47,754 nucleotides of DNA from a virus (Duplodnaviria > Heunggongvirae > Uroviricota > Caudoviricetes), in the IMG/VR virus record IMGVR_UViG_2778261224_000004; one strand, written 5' to 3'. Position numbers and translations under genes: made by a program. Positions 765 through 28,621 of the stretch are shown piece after piece. A model generated the notes under the pieces. It worked only from the letters and a program-made list of their open reading frames with translations, ran no database searches and was not told the origin of the DNA. Each line of letters starts with the position of its first letter. Positions within the stretch are counted from its first letter, which is position 1.

Positions 765-3610
765 TATGCAAGCCTCACAATATAATTAAATGCGATGTTT
801 TTAACGGTGTTTTCCGCGTTACCAGCAGCGTTAACGGTGATGGTGTGTCCATGTGAACCAATCTTAACAGAGTGCGTATGAGCGCCAATACCAACAGTGT
901 GTGCATGTGCCCCAGCACTTGTAGCGGTACCTGATACTGAGTGGGTATGTGCGCCAGAAGAAGGCACAGTTCCATTCCCCACCACCGTGCCACTTGATGA
1001 ACCATCCAGCCAGTCGAAATTCATACCGCCACTGTTTGGTCTCCTTAATGGAACGGTATGAGTATGTGCGCCAGCACTATTTGCAGTACCAGATACATTG
1101 TGGGTATGTGCACCTGTGTTATTCGTTGATTTAGTACCGTAATCAAACGACGATGTGGTTTTCGTACCCAAATCCGTACTGGATGCGCTGGCACTGTGGG
1201 TGTGCGATTTAATGCCATCCTGTTCCTGAGACAATACGGCCCGACCACTGGCGGGTTTGCCCTTGATTGTCCAGCCGCGCATATCTGGAATAACACCAGA
1301 AGGATAGGCAATAGCCAGTTTCGGATATGCTGCCTTATCAAACGTCTGCCCCTGCATGATTGCATAACCTGCAGGTGGCGTATCTGATGGCCACGGCAGC
1401 GGAACACCTGGCGGAAACGCTTCAATATTTGCCGAGCCGTCAAATTTTACGCCGTTAATTGTCCTTGCCGTTTTCAGCTTTGTTGCTGTCGCCGCATTGC
1501 CGGACAGTTCACCAGAAAGGCCAGCACTGAATGTCTGTTTCGCGCCCCATGTCTGGGCTTCGTCAATGATTGGTACTCGTCTTGTTGTGATCGTGCGGCT
1601 CCCCGGATTTCCTGAAATGCGCACCATAAAAAAGCGGTAGTTGGCTTTACTTACAGTGCTGCGCCATACATGCATTGAGCGCCCCGTACCGGAATCATCA
1701 CTCGGACCAACTGCGATATTTATCAGGTTGCCATCAATGACGCCCCAGTCCATACCGTCGGGAATATTGGTCATATTATCCAGCCGAACGGTTATCAGAC
1801 TGCCCGGAACAAAGTCGTAGGTCTGCCAGTCCAGGCTGGTGAGCTTTGCCACAGCACCGCCGATACCCAGATTCAGGGGAAGTGAATACGAGGTGTAGAC
1901 TTCCCGCCATTCGCTCCACGAGCTACCGGTATAGGCGCGCTCAAACGTGCGACCTTTAAGGGTTGCACCTGTTCCGGCGGTTGTATAACGTTGCCATACG
2001 TTAACGCCATCAAAGCGCCTCAGCACTTCCAGAATACCGAGTACAGTCACGCCGTTTCCGTCCAGTATTGGACCATTGGTCGCTTTACCTGTAACGCTGT
2101 AAATACCTGGTGAGGTTACATCATTCAAATCACCGTCGTAATAACGGCTTTCTGACTGATGACCGACTCTTAACCACGGTTCCCACTGCGGATTTGATGC
2201 ATCCCAGCTTGCCGCAAGGCAGCGGACATACATATTTCCACGGCGAGTGGTATAACGTTGCGTTCTTCCATAATTTCCGCCTTCGAGGATCTCAAGCATC
2301 CCCTGAGCAAAGCCGCCTTCCTCTGGATAATTGCGTTCATATGAAGCTATAGCTGAGCTACTGTTACGCCATAAACCAAGATGCTCGGCGGCTCCAAGCG
2401 TATTCAGGTCTATAGTCGTACTCAAAGGGCGGGTAGCAGATTGAGTGTGACGCCATACGCCCCACGGACCATCAGTGCCATTCCACTTATTGGCGAGTTT
2501 ACGCATGTATACATTGCCGTCTCTCGTGGTAAAGCGTTGCGTACCTGCAAAATGGCCGGCAGCAAAAACCTCAAGCACACCGACAGCATTATCTTCCGGG
2601 AAATTTTTCTCCAGTGTTGCGTTGGTGGATGTTGCTTTAGACCAGATACCTGAATAAGCCTTAACAGGACCAAACGTATTCAGATCAGCATCAAGCGGCA
2701 TTTCGCCATTGTTTTTCATAAACGTCAGGCTGGTAACGCCAACATTGTCCAGAAAAGCTGATTTATCCTGGATATCTGCACCGTTCTGATTTTTCGCCAG
2801 ACGTGAATTTGCGTTGTCATTTGCTGCCTTGACCGCTTTTGGCGTTGCCGCCTGCGTTTCAGACGTACTGTTAGTGGCACTACTGAGCTGAACTATCCCT
2901 TTTTGTGCCGTGGTGGCATTCTGGGCGGTATATTTTCCGTCAGCCAGGTCATATGCAGCCTTAACAGCCTTAGGCGTCGCTGCGAGCTTTTCAGACGTGC
3001 TATTGGTGGCATTACTGAGTTGAACAATGCCTTTTGATGTTAAAGTTGCATCAGGATGATTACGTGATTGCTCATGTTTTACAATAGCTTGCTTAAGCCG
3101 CTTTGCTGAAACAGCCAGGGAATCATCTGTACCTGCATCAATTTCTTGTTCATTAGCAAATCTTGCTACTCCAACAACAGTTTCGGTTGCGGGAGGGTTA
3201 ATAAACTCAACATCACCAAATGTAATGTTTTTAGTATCAAGATTTTTAATTGCTATATCACTTGATATTAAAGCAATTGTAGAAGATGCTTTATTTATTA
3301 TTACTTGTTCTTGCGAGTATACAGCAAACAATGTTCCTTTATTTGTATACAAACCTATTGTATGGACAACATACTCATCTTTACTATCATCCTTCGCAGT
3401 TACATGAATGGTATCAGGAGAAACGACTTTGCCTCCTATTGTGGTAAGTCGCTTTATTTCATCTGTTATTTTTGTTTGTGTGGTTGATGTGGCATAATAT
3501 CTACTACCTAAACCAACAGAAACGATCTCAACTTTATTTGTTCCAGTCTTGTTGGCATTAACCAGCGCCTTACGCCCGGCGTCAGTCATCGTAAATAATA
3601 ATTTACTCAC
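764..3610 (-). CDS. Tail fibre protein with C-terminal His-x-His repeat tip domain
   Basis: 948-aa ORF; repeated collar-like motifs (KGIVQLSxATNSTSE..[10 protein letters not shown] twice), three paralogous internal modules (..[15 protein letters not shown].. / ..[16 protein letters not shown].. / ..[11 protein letters not shown]..), and C-terminal GAHTHxVSGTA..HTHSV HxH repeats as in T4 gp37-type and lambda Stf-type fibre tips. Confidence 0.85.
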
Positions 3611-19026: not shown

Positions 19027-20883
19027 CTATATGGTTACGCCTTTACTTATAACTCTACGGCGTCTTCTACGTATACCTGACGAGTTCTGCACATACACAT
19101 TACCTCGCATTTCCTGTTCGGCAAGCCAGTTAAAATTAGGGTTCAGAATTTCCATCGCGGCAGTTGCATAGTTACGGCAATCAAGAGGCTCGTTACGCTC
19201 GTAGACTTTCACCCACTTTTCTTTTGTCTGCCCATTTTTATATTCAAATATTTTTTTCTCTGATAATAATCCTTTAAAGTATTCGGTATCATATCCTCTG
19301 TCAGAATCTAATGGGAAATGCATATAACCAGGACCAGGATCATGTAGTTTAATTCTTGCCATGATGGTCCCTTTACCATCATCAACCCCCAAATTAAACA
19401 ACATAGCACCCACACGGTTATTATTACTTGGCTTTCCTATAAATGGTAAACCTACCCCACCACGCCCCCTGATAGAGTATATTCGCCTTGATTCTCTCGG
19501 CTTAGTAAAGCGATATACCTCTGTCGTAAAATGCCCACCAGAGTCAATACAAACGGAAGAAATCTGTAATTTTCGACCGTCACGGAATGACCAGCTACGG
19601 AGTAAGTATTCATCAAGTTGTTTCCAGACAACATCTTGTGCGGGATCACCTGGGAATATTTTATATTCTATCCCCCATGACTCCTTACCTTTTCCCCAAC
19701 CGACCAATTCACAAACTAAATACGTGTCCTGTACGTCAACACCAGCACTTAACAATAAAACATCATCTGGTAAAAACTCTTCAAACCTTATTCTGCGTTG
19801 CAACAAGTATTCAGGATCGATATCGTCTTTAGCATCCTCTTTCCATGGCTCACCCAGCTTAAGGTTAATAAACTCCATTAATCCATTTTTATCGCGGTTT
19901 CTGGTTGCTTCCGTAAATTCTTCAACCAGCTCTGACAATGCAACCCACGGGGAGTAAAGACTGTTAATATGAAAACCAACAATACCTTTAACTCCAGTAT
20001 GTTCAGCTATCCATACCCCCTTCGCCAACCAATCAACGTCTGGTTTACCAGATCCGCGCATAATCCCGCCGCACTCACAGCACTCATATCTGGCCGTTTC
20101 CGGTAACGCCTCACCTGAATCGCTCTTATCCCATCTGACTTGCGACCATTTCATCACCTGCATGGTGCCACAACATGGGCAAGGAACATGGTAGTAACGC
20201 TGATCGGAGAGCTTAAACCACTTGTGGATTTTGCTTGTTTCCTCCAAAACAGGAGTAGAAACAAAAACTTTCTTACGATTATGAAAGTTGGTAGTACGCT
20301 GAATACCTAGTTTTAGTGGGTCGCCCTCCTGCGTCACACCGTAACGATCAATCTCATCAGCTAACAGTATTCGAATTGGCCTGGATGCAAGACCTGCTGG
20401 GGAATTAGCACCAACAAGTGCTATATATCCACCAGCGTAATGCTTCATACGTATAGTCGTGCTGGACTTTTTGGCTGCACCGCGCCCCTCTTTCCCTTCA
20501 TGCAGCTTGTGTTTCAAACCAGGGGAATATTTGAACGTCGGATCAATACGCTCTTTTGAAAAAGCCTCAGCCGCCTCTACCGTTGGATAAATCATCAACT
20601 GAGGAGATGGCTCCTGATCTGCAAAGTAACCCATAACATTTAGCTGTAATTCGGATTTACCAATTTGCGAGCTACATTGCATCACTACTGTTTCTGTATC
20701 AGCGTCACCAATAACATCCATTGGTTCACGCAAATATGGCACTCGGCTTGTACGCCACGGCCCTGGCTCTGGAGACGTTCCCGGCGCTACATGACGATAC
20801 TTATCAGCCCATTCGGAAACAGTTAGCCGTGATTTAGGGCGAAGCGCACGGAAAAAAGCGGTGCTCCATACTGTTTCGCCCAT
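19027..20883 (-). CDS. Terminase large subunit, lambda gpA-like
   Basis: 618-aa ORF; N-terminal ..TVSEWADKY.. and ATPase region resemble the GpA terminase family. Confidence 0.85.
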   Translation of the reverse strand: MGETVWSTAFFRALRPKSRLTVSEWADKYRHVAPGTSPEPGPWRTSRVPYLREPMDVIGDADTETVVMQCSSQIGKSELQLNVMGYFADQEPSPQLMIYPTVEAAEAFSKERIDPTFKYSPGLKHKLHEGKEGRGAAKKSSTTIRMKHYAGGYIALVGANSPAGLASRPIRILLADEIDRYGVTQEGDPLKLGIQRTTNFHNRKKVFVSTPVLEETSKIHKWFKLSDQRYYHVPCPCCGTMQVMKWSQVRWDKSDSGEALPETARYECCECGGIMRGSGKPDVDWLAKGVWIAEHTGVKGIVGFHINSLYSPWVALSELVEEFTEATRNRDKNGLMEFINLKLGEPWKEDAKDDIDPEYLLQRRIRFEEFLPDDVLLLSAGVDVQDTYLVCELVGWGKGKESWGIEYKIFPGDPAQDVVWKQLDEYLLRSWSFRDGRKLQISSVCIDSGGHFTTEVYRFTKPRESRRIYSIRGRGGVGLPFIGKPSNNNRVGAMLFNLGVDDGKGTIMARIKLHDPGPGYMHFPLDSDRGYDTEYFKGLLSEKKIFEYKNGQTKEKWVKVYERNEPLDCRNYATAAMEILNPNFNWLAEQEMRGNVYVQNSSGIRRRRRRVISKGVTI

Positions 20884-20888
20884 GAGGT

Positions 20889-21449
20889 TTATTCTTCCTG
20901 CTTAATAAATCGGGATTCCTGGAGCGCCTGAAGCGCAAAATTAATCTCGTCTTCAATAATGCGCTCGATCTCCCTGGCTGTTTTGCCTTCACAACGGGGA
21001 GCTGCTCTTGGAGCAATACTAAATAAGCGGCTACGCAATTCATTAGCTGCCAGAAATGCATCATCCCTGACCGCATCTTTAGCGATGAGAGAGCCTTCCT
21101 TTTCTTCAAATTCAAGGCGTTTCAGCTTTGCCTGATAAATTTTTTCTGCGGTCTTAGCCTTGTTGAATTGCACCGCAACACCGGAAGTACCACCAGCTAA
21201 TCCGGCATCATCAGCGGGTAACTCTGGTTGTTCCGAAGATATCCCATGCCCTCTTTTTCCATTTTCAGCAGATACCTCACGACCAACCTGTCGGCTCGCT
21301 TCATAAGCCGCACTGGCTTTATCAAAATCCAGCTTGCCGCTTTTCAGCACTGGAATGCGACCGGAACGACAGAGCTTCGTAACCATTGCCGGAGAAATAC
21401 CTTTCCGGCGGGCAAACTCTGACTTACTGACGATGGCCATTACTTGCAA
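20889..21449 (-). CDS. Terminase small subunit (Nu1-like, N-terminal HTH)
   Basis: 186-aa ORF directly upstream of large terminase; N-terminal HTH-like SKSEFARRKGISPAMVTKL. Confidence 0.6.
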   Translation of the reverse strand: MQVMAIVSKSEFARRKGISPAMVTKLCRSGRIPVLKSGKLDFDKASAAYEASRQVGREVSAENGKRGHGISSEQPELPADDAGLAGGTSGVAVQFNKAKTAEKIYQAKLKRLEFEEKEGSLIAKDAVRDDAFLAANELRSRLFSIAPRAAPRCEGKTAREIERIIEDEINFALQALQESRFIKQEE

Positions 21450-22030
21450 CCATTAGCAAGATACTGAACAAATCCCTCATGCGTTTCATGCGCGTCGTGG
21501 TACTGACGATAAACATCCAGCAACAATGCAATTTCCATATCCGTCGCGGGAATACGTTCTTTATCAATAGCCAGGTACTTAATTTGAACAACAGGGGAAG
21601 AATTATCGTCTTCTTCCTGCGGCTGTTCATCGCTTAACATTTCGTCAAGCTCTGCATCATTAAACCCAAGCAGATCAATATCAAAATCATCATCCATTAA
21701 CTCTTTGACTTCTTCGGCCAGAAGCTGCATATCCCAGCCAGCATTTAAGGCCAGCTTGTTATCTGCAATCCTGTAAGCCTTCTTCTGTTTTTCAGAAAGG
21801 TTACTCAACCGAATCGCCGGAACTTTATCCATTTCCAGAATTTCGGCTGCTGCAAGCCGCCCATGCCCCGCAATCAGTTCATTCTTTTCATCGATCAGCA
21901 CAGGATTAGTGAAACCGAACTCACGGATACTGTTCACCAACTGTTCAACTTGCTCATCTGAATGAGTCCGTGAATTTTTGGCATATCTGAGCAACTTACC
22001 GACTGGTAAATATTCGATTTTTAGAGCCAT
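21440..22030 (-). CDS. ParB-like nuclease domain (ParB/Srx fold) protein
   Basis: 196-aa ORF; motif ..YAKNSRTHSDEQVEQLVNSIREFGFTNPVLIDE..LIAGHGRLAAA..; paralog of 24697..25320. Confidence 0.7.
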   Translation of the reverse strand: MALKIEYLPVGKLLRYAKNSRTHSDEQVEQLVNSIREFGFTNPVLIDEKNELIAGHGRLAAAEILEMDKVPAIRLSNLSEKQKKAYRIADNKLALNAGWDMQLLAEEVKELMDDDFDIDLLGFNDAELDEMLSDEQPQEEDDNSSPVVQIKYLAIDKERIPATDMEIALLLDVYRQYHDAHETHEGFVQYLANGCK

Positions 22031-22587
22031 TTTTTAACCGCCATAACACAACAGGTTAAAGAAAACTGTTTAACTTATTGATACTAAAAGAGAAAAATGA
22101 CGATCTTTTTACTCATAAAAAATCACACAAACCAGCATAATTATCTGATTTTATTAAGTTTTTATAAGTAAAAAGGATCTTGCGATGGTGTTTTGGTTAA
22201 AAGATTGGATGTATTTGCATGATTTATAACGATTTTTATCAGAACAACATTACATTGGTTAAAGATCTGCGCGTATCTTGATGATCTAAAAGAAAATTTT
22301 CTACTTTCTTTTTACCAGCACAAATACAGCAAAAAATCACGTTTTCCCGATATTTTTCAATGAGATGAGTAAATTTCTTTTACCGCAACTTTTAACCTAA
22401 CTTTTTTCACGTTTAGCTAGCCGAACATCGGGGTTCGAATGACCCGCATCCAACGCTTTTGGCCAGAAGGACCCAATTCTGCCGGACGATGAAACGATGC
22501 TCGTGCTCCCCCACAGACAGCCAGCGAGCGACGCTACAGAACACAGTGAATACACTCTGCATAACAACACCATCAACCACACGATGA
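22031..22587. other. 557-bp AT-rich non-coding gap inside the late gene block (candidate cos/packaging or regulatory region)
   Basis: No convincing ORF; AT-rich with several GATC sites. Confidence 0.3.
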
Positions 22588-23307
22588 TTAACGAGAGAAG
22601 GTCTTAGAAAGAATGTCATCAATCGCCTTTGTGACTTCATCAGCAAACGCATCCTCACCAGCACGCAGCGCCACGCCATGCCAATCAAGACGCTGCGAAT
22701 AGTTAGGTTGCTGGATAAACGTAAGGATCAACGTAGGACGCCGCCCAACGCGCTGCCAGACGCCTGGTTGAAGCGGGTTACTTGTACCAGGTCGAACAAC
22801 AAAAAACTCCGTAGGCTTGCCCTGACGGCGATTTTGATGCGCATCTCGCTGAACTCTTAGGCCAGATAAGACCTGCTGTAATTGCCCCCGCGAAATATTC
22901 CCGTATTTGTCCAGCTTTGCGCCGGGACCAGGAGCAAGCTGCCAGCCGTTAGGCAAATATCCACCAGCCCTTAGCGCCCCTTCTGAGCGTTTGTACTGTC
23001 GTTGGCCACCTTCGATTTGCGGAGTCAACGTTACAGGGGCTGGCGTTCCTCCCCATTCACGAGCATACACAATGGCTGTAGGATCACTCTTCTTTGCGGC
23101 CAAAACGTAAGTAGAGTTCTGAATCCACGGCGTGGGCCTGTCAAATACCCGATTAATTTCATTCTTAATCGCAGCCTGAGAAGCCTTTGCCGTTCTGGTT
23201 GCCGCAAGCGCCATTGCGAACGGCAATTCGCGTTCTTCAAGGCGCTGGAGTTGTCGTTGAATATCCTGAGAAGAAAAATCCATCTTTATCTCAATTCTGT
23301 CAGCCAC
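22588..23307 (-). CDS. Hypothetical protein
   Basis: 239-aa ORF between ParB-methyltransferase fusion and the AT-rich gap. Confidence 0.45.
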   Translation of the reverse strand: MADRIEIKMDFSSQDIQRQLQRLEERELPFAMALAATRTAKASQAAIKNEINRVFDRPTPWIQNSTYVLAAKKSDPTAIVYAREWGGTPAPVTLTPQIEGGQRQYKRSEGALRAGGYLPNGWQLAPGPGAKLDKYGNISRGQLQQVLSGLRVQRDAHQNRRQGKPTEFFVVRPGTSNPLQPGVWQRVGRRPTLILTFIQQPNYSQRLDWHGVALRAGEDAFADEVTKAIDDILSKTFSR

Positions 23308-23323
23308 CAGCGCCTCCTACACA

Positions 23324-24703
23324 CTACTTAATCAACGGCCGGAAAGCCGCCAGCACATCATCAGATCGTCCGATTGTTGAACCACCAGGCAACGGCAACT
23401 CAAACTCAAAACGAACAGCTTTCTCCAGACTCGCCCAACTAAGGGAATCATCGTTAATAACGTGCAAATACCAGCTCTTACAGTTGAATATTGACCGCTT
23501 AATCCTGAAACCATGTACACGACACAACTGCTTCACTTCATCATCAGAGTGAAACTTCTGGTAAAACCAGTGCCCCTTCCGGTACAACGCGGTAAAACCG
23601 TTATGATCAATAAAATAAAGCCGGCTTTTGGAACTCGCAGCTTGTGTTTGCTTCAGGACTGTTTCCAGCTCTCCACGGCTACGGCCAGAAAAGAATATTG
23701 ACCCACCAGCTTTACACAAGCCTTTCAGAACCGTCAGAACGGACCATTCAGCCTCGACACTATCGACCGAGTTCAAAACGCTATCGCAAATCACGTAGTC
23801 GTAACGCCCTCGCGTTTTTAAGTCGTCCACCAGCGTATCAATCATCCGGTTTGTTGCGGTCCTATCCAGAGTGTTTCCAGCGCCCTTACGGCGGAAAAGC
23901 TCGAGATCATGCAGGTTATATCCCTTTGCCCTGAGCATTCGCGCGTAGTCTCCCTGCCCCGAACCAAAATCAATTCCTCTTGGCGTCTTGGCAACGATCG
24001 GGAGGATCAACGACTCATACAGATTTGATTTCAGGCTGCCACCATTACGCAACCGCATAAGCTGCGCATACGTCTGGATGTATGTTGTTTTCTCCAGATG
24101 AGAATACTCAAATACACCATAAGTTTTATTCAGATAACTTTGGTATTTTTCCTTCTCAACATCAGGGATCACAAACACCGTTAGCGGTGTGCGCGTCATT
24201 TTCGCTGCTAATGCATACTGAGCACAGTGAATAACCTCACCAGACTGAGTAGCAACACAACCACCCCACGGACCATACTTGATAACCAGTTCCGCTATGT
24301 TCTTTCGAACATATGCCATTTTCGCGCGCATATTGCCTGAGATCTGGCTTGCCGATACCTGAACAAAACCATGCTTATCTTCCAGACCGGACACCCTGCA
24401 ACGCTCATCTCCGCTATCAAAATCCGTTCCGTTATGCAGTTGGTTAAACCGTACTTCGTCGTATACCGTCGTTTCACAGGGCAACACATACACCGCAGCA
24501 CGCGTTATTCCCAACTTACGTAGCGCCTTCGTCCTTTGGTGTCCCGCCACCAGCAAATCGCCGCGCACTATCAATGGCTTCACAAGCCCCAGCTCCCTGA
24601 CGCTTTCCGCCAGCCTCGCAAGATCATCCTCACCGATAAAACGCGGGTTATATTCCGCGCCGCGTAGGTGCGTTATGTCGTAATTGAGGTGAAGCATCAG
24701 CAC
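23324..24703 (-). CDS. ParB-like N-terminal domain fused to a class I SAM-dependent methyltransferase domain
   Basis: 459-aa ORF; N-terminal ParB-like ..LVAGHQRTKAL..; C-terminal Rossmann methyltransferase motif I GIDFGSGQGDYA and motif II-like YDYVICDSVL; no DPPY/DPPW or PCQ motif seen. Confidence 0.65.
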   Translation of the reverse strand: MLMLHLNYDITHLRGAEYNPRFIGEDDLARLAESVRELGLVKPLIVRGDLLVAGHQRTKALRKLGITRAAVYVLPCETTVYDEVRFNQLHNGTDFDSGDERCRVSGLEDKHGFVQVSASQISGNMRAKMAYVRKNIAELVIKYGPWGGCVATQSGEVIHCAQYALAAKMTRTPLTVFVIPDVEKEKYQSYLNKTYGVFEYSHLEKTTYIQTYAQLMRLRNGGSLKSNLYESLILPIVAKTPRGIDFGSGQGDYARMLRAKGYNLHDLELFRRKGAGNTLDRTATNRMIDTLVDDLKTRGRYDYVICDSVLNSVDSVEAEWSVLTVLKGLCKAGGSIFFSGRSRGELETVLKQTQAASSKSRLYFIDHNGFTALYRKGHWFYQKFHSDDEVKQLCRVHGFRIKRSIFNCKSWYLHVINDDSLSWASLEKAVRFEFELPLPGGSTIGRSDDVLAAFRPLIK

Positions 24704-25320
24704 ACCTCCCCAGCCAGCAATGCGGATACAAATCCGATATAGCTGCCATTATCATCAACATAACGAGACACCGCGCAGTCAAAACGATCCGCTTCCTCAT
24801 CCGTTGCCGGGATTTTATGACCTCCAAATGACAGGTACTGAACTTTTACGCCTGATTTGGCCTCATCCTTCTCAAATGGGATATCCATACCCTCTGTGTC
24901 ATCGTAGACCGCCGCACTCAATAAGTTATCCAGTTCGCGCTGAGTAAAACCAATTGAGTCCAGAGAAAAATCATCGGCCGCAAGATCTGCAAGCTCCGCG
25001 CTTAACAACTCTTCATCCCAACCAGCATTCAGCGGAATACGGTTGTCGGCCAGACGATATGCCTTCTTCTGATTCTCCGTTAGCCCAGCCAGAACAATGC
25101 AGGGAACATCATCCATCCCCAACTGAGTGGCCGCAGCAATTCGACCATGACCAGCAATTACAACGTTGTTCTCGTCTATCAGGATCGGATTAGTCCATCC
25201 GTACTCCTGTATGCTGGCAACAATCTGATCTACCTGCTCCACGGAGTGTGTGCGAGCGTTCTTTTCATAACCAATCAACACAGAAAGTGGTAAAGAAACC
25301 ACATTAAGTTGTTTTGTCAT
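24697..25320 (-). CDS. ParB-like nuclease domain (ParB/Srx fold) protein
   Basis: 207-aa ORF; ..YEKNARTHSVEQVDQIVASIQEYGWTNPILIDE..VIAGHGRIAAA.. Confidence 0.7.
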   Translation of the reverse strand: MTKQLNVVSLPLSVLIGYEKNARTHSVEQVDQIVASIQEYGWTNPILIDENNVVIAGHGRIAAATQLGMDDVPCIVLAGLTENQKKAYRLADNRIPLNAGWDEELLSAELADLAADDFSLDSIGFTQRELDNLLSAAVYDDTEGMDIPFEKDEAKSGVKVQYLSFGGHKIPATDEEADRFDCAVSRYVDDNGSYIGFVSALLAGEVC

Positions 25321-27481: not shown

Positions 27482-28069
27482 CTATGACACTTGCCAGAGA
27501 GCATCATGCAACTGGATACCTCCGTTGCACTGGTTGCCCCAGCCATGCCAGCCATCAGGTAAATCACCGCGAGCAAACAGCTCAATACGAGGAACATCGC
27601 CTAACAGCTTTACCAGCTTGTCACGGACCACATCAGGCTTCCGAGAATGCTCCAGACGAGGCGATGTAAACGACTGAATGATCCCCGCATCAAGACGTGT
27701 CGGTAGTTTGCCTTTCACTGCAAACAAGCAATCTTCACTGTTTGCACGAGTCATATGCCCCATCCCCATCACCAGCTTATCTGGTTGTCGGCTACCACAT
27801 TTGTTCCATGTGAAGCCCTTCATGGTCATCAGCCTGAATCCCCATGCTTTCACCACCAGCAACGCTTCTTCTGGCTGAGTCGGAACCCACCACATGGCCA
27901 ACAAACACGATTCAGGATTAGCAAGCTGCCAGACAGGAATACGAGCAATATCCTCAGCTTTCATCGTTGGATACTTAAAACCAGCGCCACGATTCCCATC
28001 CTTACACTTGTCTTTGTATTCCCAGGGGGGATCTGCATAAATCAGATTAAACAATGCAATTGCCTCCAT
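27482..28069 (-). CDS. MT-A70-family N6-adenine DNA methyltransferase
   Basis: 195-aa ORF with catalytic motif YADPPWEY near the N-terminus. Confidence 0.7.
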   Translation of the reverse strand: MEAIALFNLIYADPPWEYKDKCKDGNRGAGFKYPTMKAEDIARIPVWQLANPESCLLAMWWVPTQPEEALLVVKAWGFRLMTMKGFTWNKCGSRQPDKLVMGMGHMTRANSEDCLFAVKGKLPTRLDAGIIQSFTSPRLEHSRKPDVVRDKLVKLLGDVPRIELFARGDLPDGWHGWGNQCNGGIQLHDALWQVS

Positions 28070-28376
28070 GTTAGTTGTGTCTCCGGCGCTTATCTCCGGC
28101 AGTCATAACGCTGGCCAGCTCTACAGCAAACACAACGAAAAGGGCGCTAACCAGACTGATTAATGCCCTTGCCTGTTGTGTGCCGGATATCGCCCGACAA
28201 CGCTGTTTTGGTAACACGGCTACAGTTCCGTGCCGCTCCAGCTTTTACCCCTTTGCGGATAACAGGCCCTGCCTGTAACTTAGCCCCACGTTCGCCCGAA
28301 ATGCGCACCAGGCACGCATAAAGATGAGCACGAAGAAGTAACTCCACCGCGCTTATCTTTATGTGTGAGAGTGAAT

Positions 28377-28452
28377 TGGTGGCCCCTACCGGATTTGAAC
28401 CGATGACCGTGCGATTATGAGTCGCCTGCTCTAACCACTGAGCTAAGGGGCC
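28377..28452 (-). tRNA. tRNA with CAT anticodon (Met or lysidine-type Ile2), encoded CCA end
   Basis: Hand-folded cloverleaf GGCCCCTTAGCTCAGTGGTTAGAGCAGGCGACTCATAATCGCACGGTCATCGGTTCAAATCCGGTAGGGGCCACCA: 7-bp acceptor stem, D arm, anticodon loop CTCATAA, T loop TTCAAAT. Confidence 0.85.
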
Positions 28453-28461
28453 ATATTTGAT

Positions 28462-28545
28462 TTGTTTGTCTGGTGTGGCGCCGCGCACGAAAATCCCAGC
28501 CAATAAATTCAGGATTTTTGGGCGCGGCGGCATATCAGACAAACA
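28462..28545. repeat. 84-bp imperfect palindrome (nested inverted repeats) next to the tRNA 5' end
   Basis: Inner arms 28477-28496 and 28512-28530 (about 19 bp, GC-rich), outer arms 28462-28472 and 28536-28545. Confidence 0.5.
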
Positions 28546-28621
28546 TGGTTGATGCGTGCGCCCATGAGAAAAGCGCATAGAATGTTGTAACTATATATTT
28601 ATATAATTATAGAAATATATA

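What the first reader, a model, noticed from the sequence alone, without database searches (positions are those of the whole stretch)
23324..24703. ParB-like domain fused to a SAM-dependent methyltransferase of unclear substrate
The 459-aa protein combines an N-terminal ParB/Srx-fold domain with a C-terminal class I methyltransferase fold (GIDFGSGQG motif I) that lacks the DPPY/DPPW or PCQ motifs of DNA amino- or C5-methyltransferases. It sits in the late operon just upstream of the packaging genes. The substrate could be DNA, a nucleotide or a protein; the position suggests DNA modification, packaging or counter-defence.
Basis: partly seen in the sequence, partly recalled or inferred. Interest (0 to 1): 0.7.

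Follow-up and report, generated by a model that had tools for sequence, protein, structure and literature searches.

The report
Phage ParB-fused methyltransferase, likely DNA-modifying
A phage-plasmid late gene fuses ParB-like domains to an ordinary-looking SAM methyltransferase that is not of any known DNA-methylase type, yet its gene context across many phages points to phage DNA as its target, possibly with a new kind of methyl mark.

Summary

Three things are new here:
- The gene is half of a conserved two-gene module. A small acidic ParB-like protein (sParB, 24697-25320) lies directly upstream in 51 of 70 loci, and is fused to the enzyme in one metagenomic protein.
- The module sits just before the terminase genes, whatever the terminase family, in phages of at least six bacterial phyla.
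- In other phages, relatives of sParB are fused to N6/N4 DNA methylases (51 of 51) or are followed by Mom, TAGT, DNA methylases or PAPS-reductase-like genes (22 of 27).

I therefore read the protein as a ParB-assisted DNA-modifying methyltransferase with a non-canonical catalytic domain. Its chemistry is unknown, and I found no paper on the family. This is a new variant of a known kind, of moderate to high interest.

The parts
23324..24697 (-). ParB-MT gene: 457-aa fusion of ParB-like domains and a class I SAM methyltransferase (stop codon included)
   Evidence: ORF. The ATG start overlaps the upstream stop as TGATG, with a GGAGG 7 nt upstream. PHROG 5475 'unknown function' matches over the full length, E 2.9e-265. 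AF2 model pLDDT 94.5.
24413..24697 (-). aa 1-95: ParB/Srx N-terminal (nucleotide-pocket) domain, with invariant NPR, AGHQR and FNQLHNGTDxD motifs
   Evidence: Pfam ParB_N 24.3 bits. Profile match to Spo0J 6sdk, E 3.9e-8. hhalign to sParB, 97.8% probability. Invariant columns. AGHQR is present in 242 of 243 family proteins.
24122..24385 (-). aa 105-192: basic middle domain, probably a degenerate second ParB-like repeat
   Evidence: It has the same strand/helix order as aa 1-90 in the model. The hhalign match to sParB is weak but in register, E 0.011, so this is an inference. Family median pI 9.2.
23327..24121 (-). aa 193-457: conserved lid (193-236) plus the class I SAM methyltransferase domain. 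Invariant residues include DFGSGQG (motif I), E266 and D305-S-V-L-N309-S-V-D312.
24697..25320 (-). sParB: 207-aa acidic ParB-like partner. It has a nucleotide-pocket domain, an acidic disordered linker and a small C-terminal domain, and appears translationally coupled to ParB-MT.
   Evidence: PHROG 620, E 3.4e-74. AF2 model pLDDT 78.8, with aa 141-158 disordered. Foldseek top hits are CDP-bound ParB 7bnk and 6sdk. pI 4.25. It lies directly upstream of ParB-MT in 51 of 70 loci. It is fused to ParB-MT in P0386.
21440..22030 (-). Second sParB paralogue (196 aa, 48% identical to the first over its full length), overlapping the start of the small terminase gene
   Evidence: PHROG 620, E 4.6e-75. 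Alignment A2. The same arrangement occurs in L014 and L017.
22031..22587 (.). 557-bp non-coding region between the module and the second sParB/terminase genes. It is the probable cos region, and a possible loading site.
   Evidence: A block at about 22389-22474 is conserved even in a relative whose proteins are about 70% identical. The ends of the Yersinia phage vB_YpM_39 record fall inside it, at window 22445/22444. Five of the window's 33 TTAACC copies lie in 22034-22397. The function is inferred, not shown.
19027..21449 (-). Small (20889-21449) and large (19027-20883) terminase genes: the conserved downstream context, not part of the enzyme
   Evidence: PHROG 57 terminase small subunit, E 7.4e-42. 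The large subunit is annotated in public records.

Best explanation
ParB-MT and the small acidic ParB-like protein encoded just upstream (sParB) form a two-protein, late-expressed DNA-modification module.

Proposed mechanism:
- The methyltransferase domain binds SAM and transfers a methyl group.
- The ParB-type nucleotide-pocket domains of the two proteins act as the accessory part. With sParB's partner-specific C-terminal domain, they bring the enzyme onto replicated phage DNA before packaging, or switch it on there.
- The catalytic domain belongs to the UbiG/Trm9-like group and lacks the motifs used to methylate exocyclic amino groups or cytosine C5. The mark is therefore probably not m6A, m4C or 5mC, and its chemistry is unknown.
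- The likely benefit is protection of progeny DNA in the next host, as for Mom and other late phage DNA-modifying enzymes. A role in packaging is possible.

Shown here: the domain architecture, intact SAM motifs, the conserved gene pair, its position, and the company kept by this ParB clade.

Inferred: the physical complex, nucleotide dependence, DNA as substrate, and the biological benefit.

For: 2. Gene pair. sParB lies within 60 bp upstream in 51 of 70 loci and within 1.2 kb in 60 of 70, down to 32% identity. The two genes share a TGATG overlap. A natural fusion of sParB and ParB-MT exists (P0386, hhalign 96% probability to sParB positions 32-202). Full-length sParB homologues come from contigs of the same length as those of ParB-MT homologues, in 8 pairs.

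3. Census of this ParB clade in viral contigs. All 51 long ORFs are ParB plus an N6_N4 DNA methylase. Of 27 standalone sParBs, the next gene is Mom in 8, TAGT in 8, an N6_N4 methylase in 3, PAPS-reductase-like in 2 and a C5 methylase in 1.

4. Same slot. In other prophages the order is lysis genes, ParB, then TAGT or Mom, then the small terminase gene. In Serratia the same slot holds ParB-MT.

5. Precedents. Phage T-dioxygenases need a ParB-like partner that lacks the DNA-binding domain and carries the same Q-to-N and E-to-H/D substitutions (bioRxiv 10.1101/2025.08.14.668559). DpdB is a ParB-fold ATPase that serves the DNA transglycosylase DpdA (PMC10164549).

6. Invariant substrate. ParB-MT is basic (pI 9.2). 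About 60 residues are invariant across hosts from six phyla, while the neighbouring terminases belong to unrelated families.
Against: - No biochemical or methylome data exist for any member.
- The catalytic domain resembles small-molecule, RNA and protein methyltransferases. No DNA methylase appears in the top 50-60 structural matches.
- No helix-turn-helix or other DNA-binding domain was recognised in either protein. sParB is strongly acidic, with net charge -20.
- The residues that hydrolyse CTP in canonical ParB are replaced by N, H and F, so a ParB-like clamp cycle is not assured.
- The context argument is guilt by association. The census is a sample: the best 80 of the first 600 matches.
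- A distant homologue in Brochothrix phage BtpYZU02 has no sParB and lies in the replication module.
Confidence: 0.58

Rival explanations
1. Nucleotide or small-molecule methyltransferase. The ParB/Srx pocket binds a nucleotide such as CTP or ATP, and the UbiG-like domain methylates that nucleotide or another metabolite. The purpose could be to feed a modified precursor into DNA or to disable a host signalling molecule.
For: The closest structures and sequences are small-molecule methyltransferases: UbiG E 8.6e-7, and a toxoflavin N-methyltransferase and others. ParB/Srx folds include kinases and NTPases acting on small substrates (serine kinase and sulfiredoxin hits). The pocket motifs are invariant but not those of a CTPase.
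Against: This ParB clade is fused to, or paired with, enzymes that act on DNA polymers: N6_N4 methylases, Mom and TAGT. Late expression next to the packaging genes suits neither precursor synthesis nor early interception of a signal. No polymerase or nucleotide-metabolism genes accompany the module.
Confidence: 0.13
2. Protein methyltransferase. The enzyme methylates a packaging or virion protein, its own sParB partner, or a universal host protein.
For: The gene lies next to the terminase genes in most loci. There are weak sequence matches to protein methyltransferases: Rickettsia lysine methyltransferase E 0.0035 and CheR E 0.09.
Against: The neighbouring terminases and portals belong to unrelated families (GpA versus Terminase_6, and different small subunits), while the enzyme's conserved surface residues do not change. 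Other occupants of the same slot are DNA-modifying enzymes, not protein modifiers.
Confidence: 0.1
3. RNA methyltransferase acting on tRNA or rRNA to adjust translation late in infection.
For: Trm9, METTL6 and cap N7 methyltransferases are among the structural neighbours. The element carries a tRNA with a CAT anticodon.
Against: These matches are no better than those to small-molecule enzymes. No RNA-binding domain is present. The ParB clade's partners act on DNA. Most related loci show no tRNA gene next to the module in the called genes.
Confidence: 0.07
4. Ordinary plasmid partition: the ParB-like proteins segregate the phage-plasmid, and the methyltransferase domain is incidental.
For: The element is a plasmid in 73 of 74 E. 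coli occurrences. ParB_N is the partition-protein domain.
Against: The same module occurs in integrated prophages and in phages of many phyla. It is never next to a ParA gene in the loci read. The plasmid's ParA gene lies elsewhere and on the other strand. There is no DNA-binding helix-turn-helix domain. The module lies in the late operon.
Confidence: 0.03

Closest known systems
ParB-fused N6/N4 DNA methyltransferases (ParB_N + PF01555; PHROG 498, PADLOC PDLC03229; M.EcoGIX and its homologue from Burkholderia plasmid pBCA072, PMC7736820)
   Same: They have an N-terminal ParB domain of the same clade, with the NxRxH, GHGR and ADN motifs. sParB matches PDLC03229 positions 14-158 at E 2.5e-37. 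They are common in phages, and 51 of 51 long ORFs in the census have this architecture.
   Different: Their catalytic domain is a DNA amino-methylase with an invariant DPPY. Here it is a Methyltransf_23/UbiG-like domain with no such motif. This protein also has a second ParB-like domain and a separate sParB partner.
ParB-dependent phage thymine dioxygenases (5mYOX + ParB; bioRxiv 10.1101/2025.08.14.668559)
   Same: A separate small ParB-like protein with a nucleotide-pocket domain, a disordered linker in place of the DNA-binding domain, and a C-terminal domain. It has the same substitutions (Q to N, E to H or D) and the same closest structures (Myxococcus and Caulobacter ParB). It serves a DNA-modifying enzyme.
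   Different: The effector there is an Fe/2-oxoglutarate dioxygenase. Here it is a SAM methyltransferase that itself carries ParB-like domains. Dependence on the partner was shown there and not here.
sParB + Mom and sParB + TAGT gene pairs upstream of the terminase genes
   Same: The same ParB clade (about 60% identity over the first 135 residues) in the same slot, between the lysis genes and the small terminase gene.
   Different: The effector is an adenine-modifying Mom-family protein or a TET-associated glycosyltransferase. The sParB C-terminus differs with the partner.
DpdA-DpdB (7-deazaguanine insertion into DNA; PMC10164549)
   Same: A ParB-fold NTPase with a DGQQR-type motif assists a DNA-modifying enzyme. 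The motif here is AGHQR.
   Different: It is a bacterial defence system with a transglycosylase effector, and DpdB has a different C-terminal domain.
Canonical ParB/Spo0J/Noc/KorB CTP-dependent DNA clamps
   Same: The fold of the N-terminal domain and the GxxRxxA motif.
   Different: The catalytic Q, E and E are replaced. There is no helix-turn-helix domain, and no parS site or ParA partner was identified.
UbiG / Trm9 / METTL6-like class I SAM methyltransferases
   Same: The fold and SAM-binding motifs.
   Different: Identity is only 10-20%. This family has its own conserved lid and C-terminal hairpin, and a family-specific post-beta4 motif, D-S-V-L-N-S-V-D.

Membership tests
ParB/Srx superfamily (PF02195 ParB_N) | Sequence or profile match to the ParB N-terminal domain | tested here: met
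   Pfam gives 24.3 bits, under the cut-off of 26.3. The family profile hits Spo0J 6sdk at E 3.9e-8. Most homologues carry a precomputed PF02195 hit.
ParB/Srx superfamily (PF02195 ParB_N) | GxxRxxA nucleotide-binding motif | tested here: met
   G52-H-Q-R55-T-K-A58, aligned to GERRFRA of Spo0J. AGHQR occurs in 242 of 243 family proteins.
Canonical CTP-hydrolysing ParB clamps (ParB, Noc, KorB) | Catalytic residues for CTP hydrolysis (Q of QPR, E of GERR, E of ENxxR) | tested here: not met
   They are replaced by N17, H53 and F84, all invariant or nearly so.
Canonical CTP-hydrolysing ParB clamps (ParB, Noc, KorB) | Helix-turn-helix DNA-binding domain and a cognate parS site | tested here: not met
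   No such domain appears in Pfam or NCBIfam hits or in the models. No palindromic repeat stands out. The TTAACC cluster is unassigned.
ParB-fused DNA amino-methyltransferases (ParB_N + N6_N4_Mtase) | PF01555 catalytic domain with a (D/N/S)PP(Y/F/W) motif | tested here: not met
   There is no PF01555 hit. The motif is absent in 70 of 70 aligned relatives. True members show an invariant DPPY.
DNA cytosine-C5 methyltransferases (PF00145) | PCQ catalytic cysteine motif and ENV motif | tested here: not met
   There is no PF00145 hit. No PC[QK] occurs in 70 of 70 aligned relatives.
Class I SAM-dependent methyltransferases (Methyltransf_23 group) | Profile match above the curated cut-off | tested here: met
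   PF13489, 31.5 bits against a cut-off of 27.
Class I SAM-dependent methyltransferases (Methyltransf_23 group) | Rossmann-like fold with the glycine-rich motif I and an acidic residue after strand 2 | tested here: met
Class I SAM-dependent methyltransferases (Methyltransf_23 group) | SAM binding and methyl transfer | not testable with these tools
   This needs biochemistry.
ParB-assisted DNA-modification modules (5mYOX-ParB, DpdA-DpdB, sParB-Mom/TAGT) | A ParB-like accessory protein without a DNA-binding domain, encoded next to the effector | tested here: met
   sParB is adjacent in 51 of 70 loci. Its architecture is a nucleotide-pocket domain, a disordered linker and a C-terminal domain.
ParB-assisted DNA-modification modules (5mYOX-ParB, DpdA-DpdB, sParB-Mom/TAGT) | The effector modifies DNA, and its activity depends on the ParB partner | not testable with these tools
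   Only context supports it.

The most novel reading that the evidence does not exclude
The enzyme writes a kind of DNA methylation for which no phage enzyme has been identified to my knowledge: on a ring nitrogen or an oxygen (for example N7-G, N1-A or N3-C) rather than on an exocyclic amino group or C5. The ParB-type partner system would load it at a phage-specific site beside the packaging site, so that only phage DNA is marked before it is packaged. Old reports of a methylated guanine in Shigella phage DDVI DNA (cited in PMC11472151) show that such marks may exist, and I know of no assigned gene for them.
Probability: 0.25. Interest if true: 0.85.

Novelty: new variant of a known kind. Interest (0 to 1): 0.62.

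Why it matters
If the reading is right, this widespread phage family would extend the enzymes known to methylate DNA beyond the amino-methylase and C5-methylase families. The family has 238 clusters at 50% identity, with hosts in at least six phyla. It may also reveal a DNA mark that standard methylome pipelines do not look for.

It would add a third worked example, after the thymine dioxygenases and DpdA/DpdB, of ParB-fold proteins serving as accessory subunits of DNA-modifying enzymes.

The census made here suggests a general rule. A particular clade of small phage ParB proteins, annotated as 'nuclease' or 'partition protein' in thousands of prophages, marks the neighbouring gene as a DNA-modification enzyme.

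The element itself is a 48-kb phage-plasmid found in 71 of 5426 complete E. coli genomes, so any anti-restriction effect bears on its spread.

Tried and rejected
- Literature. Searches for the family, its accession, the carrying phages and combinations of ParB, methyltransferase and terminase found no study of it.
- Wrong lead. My recollection that the element belongs to the pSLy3 phage-plasmid group was wrong. pSLy3 is 114 kb and SSU5-like.
- Defence and curated libraries. PADLOC and NCBIfam gave only ParB-domain matches.
- Hen1-like 2'-O-methylation. This was considered because of the Methyltransf_23-type domain and possible metal ligands after strand 4 (D305, N309, D312).
- Internal duplication. 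A profile comparison of the first and middle domains found nothing (E 0.24). The middle domain against sParB gave only E 0.011, so the 'second ParB domain' rests mainly on secondary-structure order.
- parS-like site. No palindrome was found near the module, and Rfam found nothing in the non-coding region.
- Cultured phages. Only seven isolated phages carry a homologue, and none is well studied.
Full report
**Observation**

The mechanical ORF starts at a GTG. The ATG at 24697 is the better start for four reasons:
- It overlaps the stop codon of the upstream gene as TGATG.
- A GGAGG lies 7 nt upstream of it.
- Homologues begin at the same residue.
- Public annotations use it.

The protein is therefore 457 aa.

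Pfam gives Methyltransf_23 at aa 238-400 (31.5 bits, cut-off 27). It gives ParB_N at aa 9-70 (24.3 bits, just under the cut-off of 26.3). PHROGs places the whole protein in family 5475, 'unknown function' (E 2.9e-265).

**The element**

The window is a roughly 48-kb myovirus-type phage-plasmid.
- The gene is at least 99% identical in Yersinia phages vB_YpM_39, 41 and 44 and in Escherichia phage vB_EcoM-613R2.
- It occurs in 71 of 5426 complete E. coli genomes, and 73 of 74 copies are on plasmids of about 48 kb.
- One such plasmid is annotated with ParA, a RelE/ParE toxin, lysis genes, a tRNA, terminase, head and contractile-tail genes.

**Anatomy of the protein**

An alignment of 70 relatives (45-89% identical, alignment A1) gave an AlphaFold2 model with mean pLDDT 94.5 and pTM 0.90.

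*ParB domain, aa 1-95.* A profile of the family hits B. subtilis Spo0J/ParB (6sdk) at E 3.9e-8. A profile-profile comparison with the neighbouring small ParB gives 97.8% probability. The three motifs that line the nucleotide pocket of ParB are all present and invariant, but altered:
- NPR in place of QPR.
- AGHQR in place of GERR.
- FNQLH in place of ENLQR, followed by an invariant acidic loop NGTDxDxGDE.

The residues that hydrolyse CTP in canonical ParB are thus replaced. The phosphate-binding arginines and the asparagine remain.

*Middle domain, aa 105-192.* This stretch repeats the same order of strands and helices and is basic. Sequence support for a second ParB-like domain is weak (E 0.011, in register). 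I treat it as probable, not shown.

*Lid and methyltransferase, aa 193-457.* These residues form a conserved lid and a class I methyltransferase.
- By sequence profile the nearest solved relative is UbiG (E 8.6e-7).
- Motif I (DFGSGQG) and the acidic residue after strand 2 (E266) are invariant, so the enzyme should bind SAM.
- The stretch after strand 4 reads D-S-V-L-N-S-V-D, not (D/N/S)PP(Y/F/W).
- No such motif and no PCQ occur in any of the 70 relatives.

**A two-gene module**

The gene upstream (24697-25320) encodes a 207-aa ParB-like protein, here called sParB.
- Across 70 related loci with enough upstream sequence, a homologue of sParB lies within 60 bp upstream in 51 and within 1.2 kb in 60. 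This holds down to 32% identity of the methyltransferase protein.
- One metagenomic protein (P0386, 658 aa) is an in-frame fusion of sParB and ParB-MT. Its first 197 residues match the sParB profile over positions 32-202 (96% probability). It rests on a single contig.
- Full-length homologues of sParB, including its last 50 residues, come from contigs of the same length as those of ParB-MT homologues in eight cases, for example Serratia aquatilis and Pantoea osteomyelitidis.

The sParB model (pLDDT 78.8) has a ParB nucleotide-pocket domain with a helical extension, a disordered acidic linker (aa 141-158) and a small C-terminal domain. Its closest solved structures are CDP-bound Myxococcus and Bacillus ParB, Noc, PadC and KorB. 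sParB is very acidic (pI 4.25, net charge -20), whereas ParB-MT is basic (pI 9.2).

The window holds a second sParB paralogue (21440-22030, 48% identical over its full length). It overlaps the start of the small terminase gene.

**Position and spread**

The module sits directly upstream of the terminase genes in phages with unrelated packaging enzymes:
- GpA-type large terminase with Phage_portal_2.
- Terminase_2 plus Terminase_6 with other portals.
- The same order in Bacteroides phage BS-TP3.

At least 39 of 67 loci have one of three recognised large terminases within 4 kb downstream.

The family has 238 representatives at E <= 1e-30 among 1.84 billion 50%-identity clusters. Almost all are 455-490 aa and match over the full length. 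Hosts include Gamma- and Alphaproteobacteria, Bacillota, Bacteroidota, Chloroflexota, Planctomycetota and Myxococcota. About 60 residues are invariant in the 70-sequence alignment. That argues for a substrate that does not change between hosts or packaging systems.

**What the partner says about the substrate**

This is the main new evidence.

Close homologues of sParB (about 60% identical over the first 135 residues) occupy the same slot in other enterobacterial prophages. The gene that follows them is a DNA-modifying enzyme:
- A TET-associated glycosyltransferase (PF20691) in a Citrobacter prophage and in an unnamed sequencing-run contig (L137).
- A Mom-family protein (PF25680) in Yersinia enterocolitica.
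- ParB-MT in Serratia fonticola.

I then took the best 80 viral-contig loci encoding a relative of sParB, called the ParB-containing ORF and the next ORF, and scanned them against Pfam.
- All 51 long ORFs are ParB fused to an N6_N4 DNA methylase.
- Among 27 standalone sParBs with a downstream ORF of at least 150 aa, the following gene is Mom in 8, TAGT in 8, an N6_N4 methylase in 3, PAPS-reductase-like in 2 and a C5 DNA methylase in 1. Single cases have QueC/Asn-synthase-like, radical-SAM or other hits.

This clade of ParB domains is therefore, in this sample, almost always attached to or followed by an enzyme that modifies DNA. Its variable C-terminus changes with the partner.

The census is a sample: the scan stopped at 600 matches, and the best 80 were kept. 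It is evidence by association.

**Precedents**

[quoted passage not shown] Those ParBs lack the DNA-binding domain and have an unstructured 30-50-residue segment instead. They carry N at the Q52 position and D or H at the E93 position, and are closest in structure to Myxococcus and Caulobacter ParB. sParB fits each of these points.

DpdB, a ParB-fold ATPase with a DGQQR motif, is needed by the DNA transglycosylase DpdA. ParB-fused adenine methylases are known from plasmids and phages.

**Most likely mechanism**

sParB and ParB-MT act together late in infection on replicated phage DNA. The ParB-type pockets bind a nucleotide and control assembly or activity, and the methyltransferase domain adds a methyl group from SAM. 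Because the catalytic domain is of the UbiG/Trm9 type, the mark is probably not m6A, m4C or 5mC.

My confidence in each step:

| Step | Confidence |
|---|---|
| Two-gene module | about 0.9 |
| Active SAM enzyme | about 0.85 |
| DNA as target | about 0.6-0.65 |
| Unusual chemistry | about 0.4 |

The conserved place beside the terminase genes may simply reflect the usual slot for late accessory genes. It could also mean loading at a site near the packaging site.

The 557-bp non-coding region between the module and the second sParB has three notable features:
- It holds a block conserved even in a relative whose proteins are about 70% identical.
- The ends of the Yersinia phage record fall inside that block.
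- It holds a cluster of five TTAACC repeats.

It is probably the cos region. Whether the ParB proteins use it is unknown.

**Rivals**

- *Nucleotide or metabolite methyltransferase.* This fits the fold neighbours but not the partner census or the late position.
- *Protein methyltransferase acting on packaging proteins.* This fits the position but not the invariance of the enzyme across unrelated terminases.
- *RNA methyltransferase.* Only non-specific fold matches support it.
- *Plasmid partition.* This is excluded in practice, because the module occurs in integrated prophages, is not next to ParA, and lacks a DNA-binding domain.

**Novelty**

No paper on this family was found. Databases call it 'ParB N-terminal domain-containing protein', 'nuclease' or 'methyltransferase domain-containing protein'.

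It fails the defining test for the known ParB-fused DNA methylases, since it has neither a PF01555 domain nor DPPY. It does work within the known theme of ParB-assisted DNA modification. I rate it a new variant of a known kind.

The most novel reading still open is a new chemical class of enzymatic DNA methylation in phages. Old reports of a methylated guanine in phage DDVI DNA show that such marks may exist, and I know of no assigned gene for them.

Noticed in passing
window 22389-22474 (within the non-coding region 22031-22587): A block of about 85 bp (GGGTCCTTCTGG.CAAAAGCGTTGGATGCGGGTCATTCGAACCCCG...CTAGCTAAACG...AAAAGTTAGGTTAAAAG) is far better conserved than its surroundings, even in a relative whose proteins are about 70% identical. 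The Yersinia phage vB_YpM_39 record ends and begins inside it, at window 22445/22444. It is probably the cos cleavage region. Rfam finds nothing there.
   Followed up: partly
window 22034-22397: Five of the window's 33 TTAACC hexamers cluster in 364 bp between the conserved block and the second sParB gene, where about 0.25 would be expected. The 70% relative (L017) has even more (G/T)TTAACC copies there. They could be binding sites for the small terminase subunit or for the ParB-like proteins.
   Followed up: partly
window 21440-22030 and 24697-25320: Two paralogous small ParB-like genes (48% identical over their full length) flank the probable cos region. One is coupled to ParB-MT and the other overlaps the small terminase gene. 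Most related phages have only one.
   Followed up: partly
L136, L137, L139, L140 and the viral-contig loci L141-L220: Small phage ParB-like proteins of this clade are routinely annotated as 'nuclease' or 'partition protein'. They are followed by Mom, TAGT, DNA methylases or PAPS-reductase-like genes, or are fused to N6_N4 methylases. The ParB gene looks like a general marker for a neighbouring DNA-modification enzyme.
   Followed up: yes
window 27482-28069 (-): A separate MT-A70 family DNA methyltransferase (195 aa, YADPPWEY motif) lies about 3 kb upstream in the same operon. It is annotated as frameshifted in plasmid p142_C. The element may therefore carry two different methyltransferases expressed late.
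   Followed up: partly
window 28377-28452 (-): A tRNA gene with a CAT anticodon. ARAGORN and the Yersinia phage record call it tRNA-Met, while RefSeq calls it tRNA-Ile in p142_C, implying lysidine modification. The 143-aa ORF at 28147-28578 that overlaps it is probably spurious.
   Followed up: no
window 22588-23307 (-): A 239-aa protein matching PHROG 1924 'minor tail protein' (E 2.5e-97) sits between ParB-MT and the probable cos region, far from the tail genes. It is present only in close relatives (L014, L017). Its role is unknown.
   Followed up: no
L130 (metagenome contig, 1045-3021): A single 658-aa ORF fuses sParB and ParB-MT in frame, and is followed by small ORFs. It comes from one contig only, so a sequencing error cannot be excluded.
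   Followed up: partly
L132 (Brochothrix phage BtpYZU02, 4911-6245): A distant homologue (27% identity, 444 aa) lies in the replication and recombination module, next to an HNH nuclease gene. It has no small ParB upstream, which is a different context from the rest of the family.
   Followed up: no
L005/L006 (Bradyrhizobium prophage): Near the module are genes with Amidoligase_2, GGACT and AIG2_2 domains and a second small methyltransferase. This set is reminiscent of predicted peptide or base modification systems. A host-type adenylate/guanylate cyclase and an IalB-like gene interrupt the prophage there.
   Followed up: no
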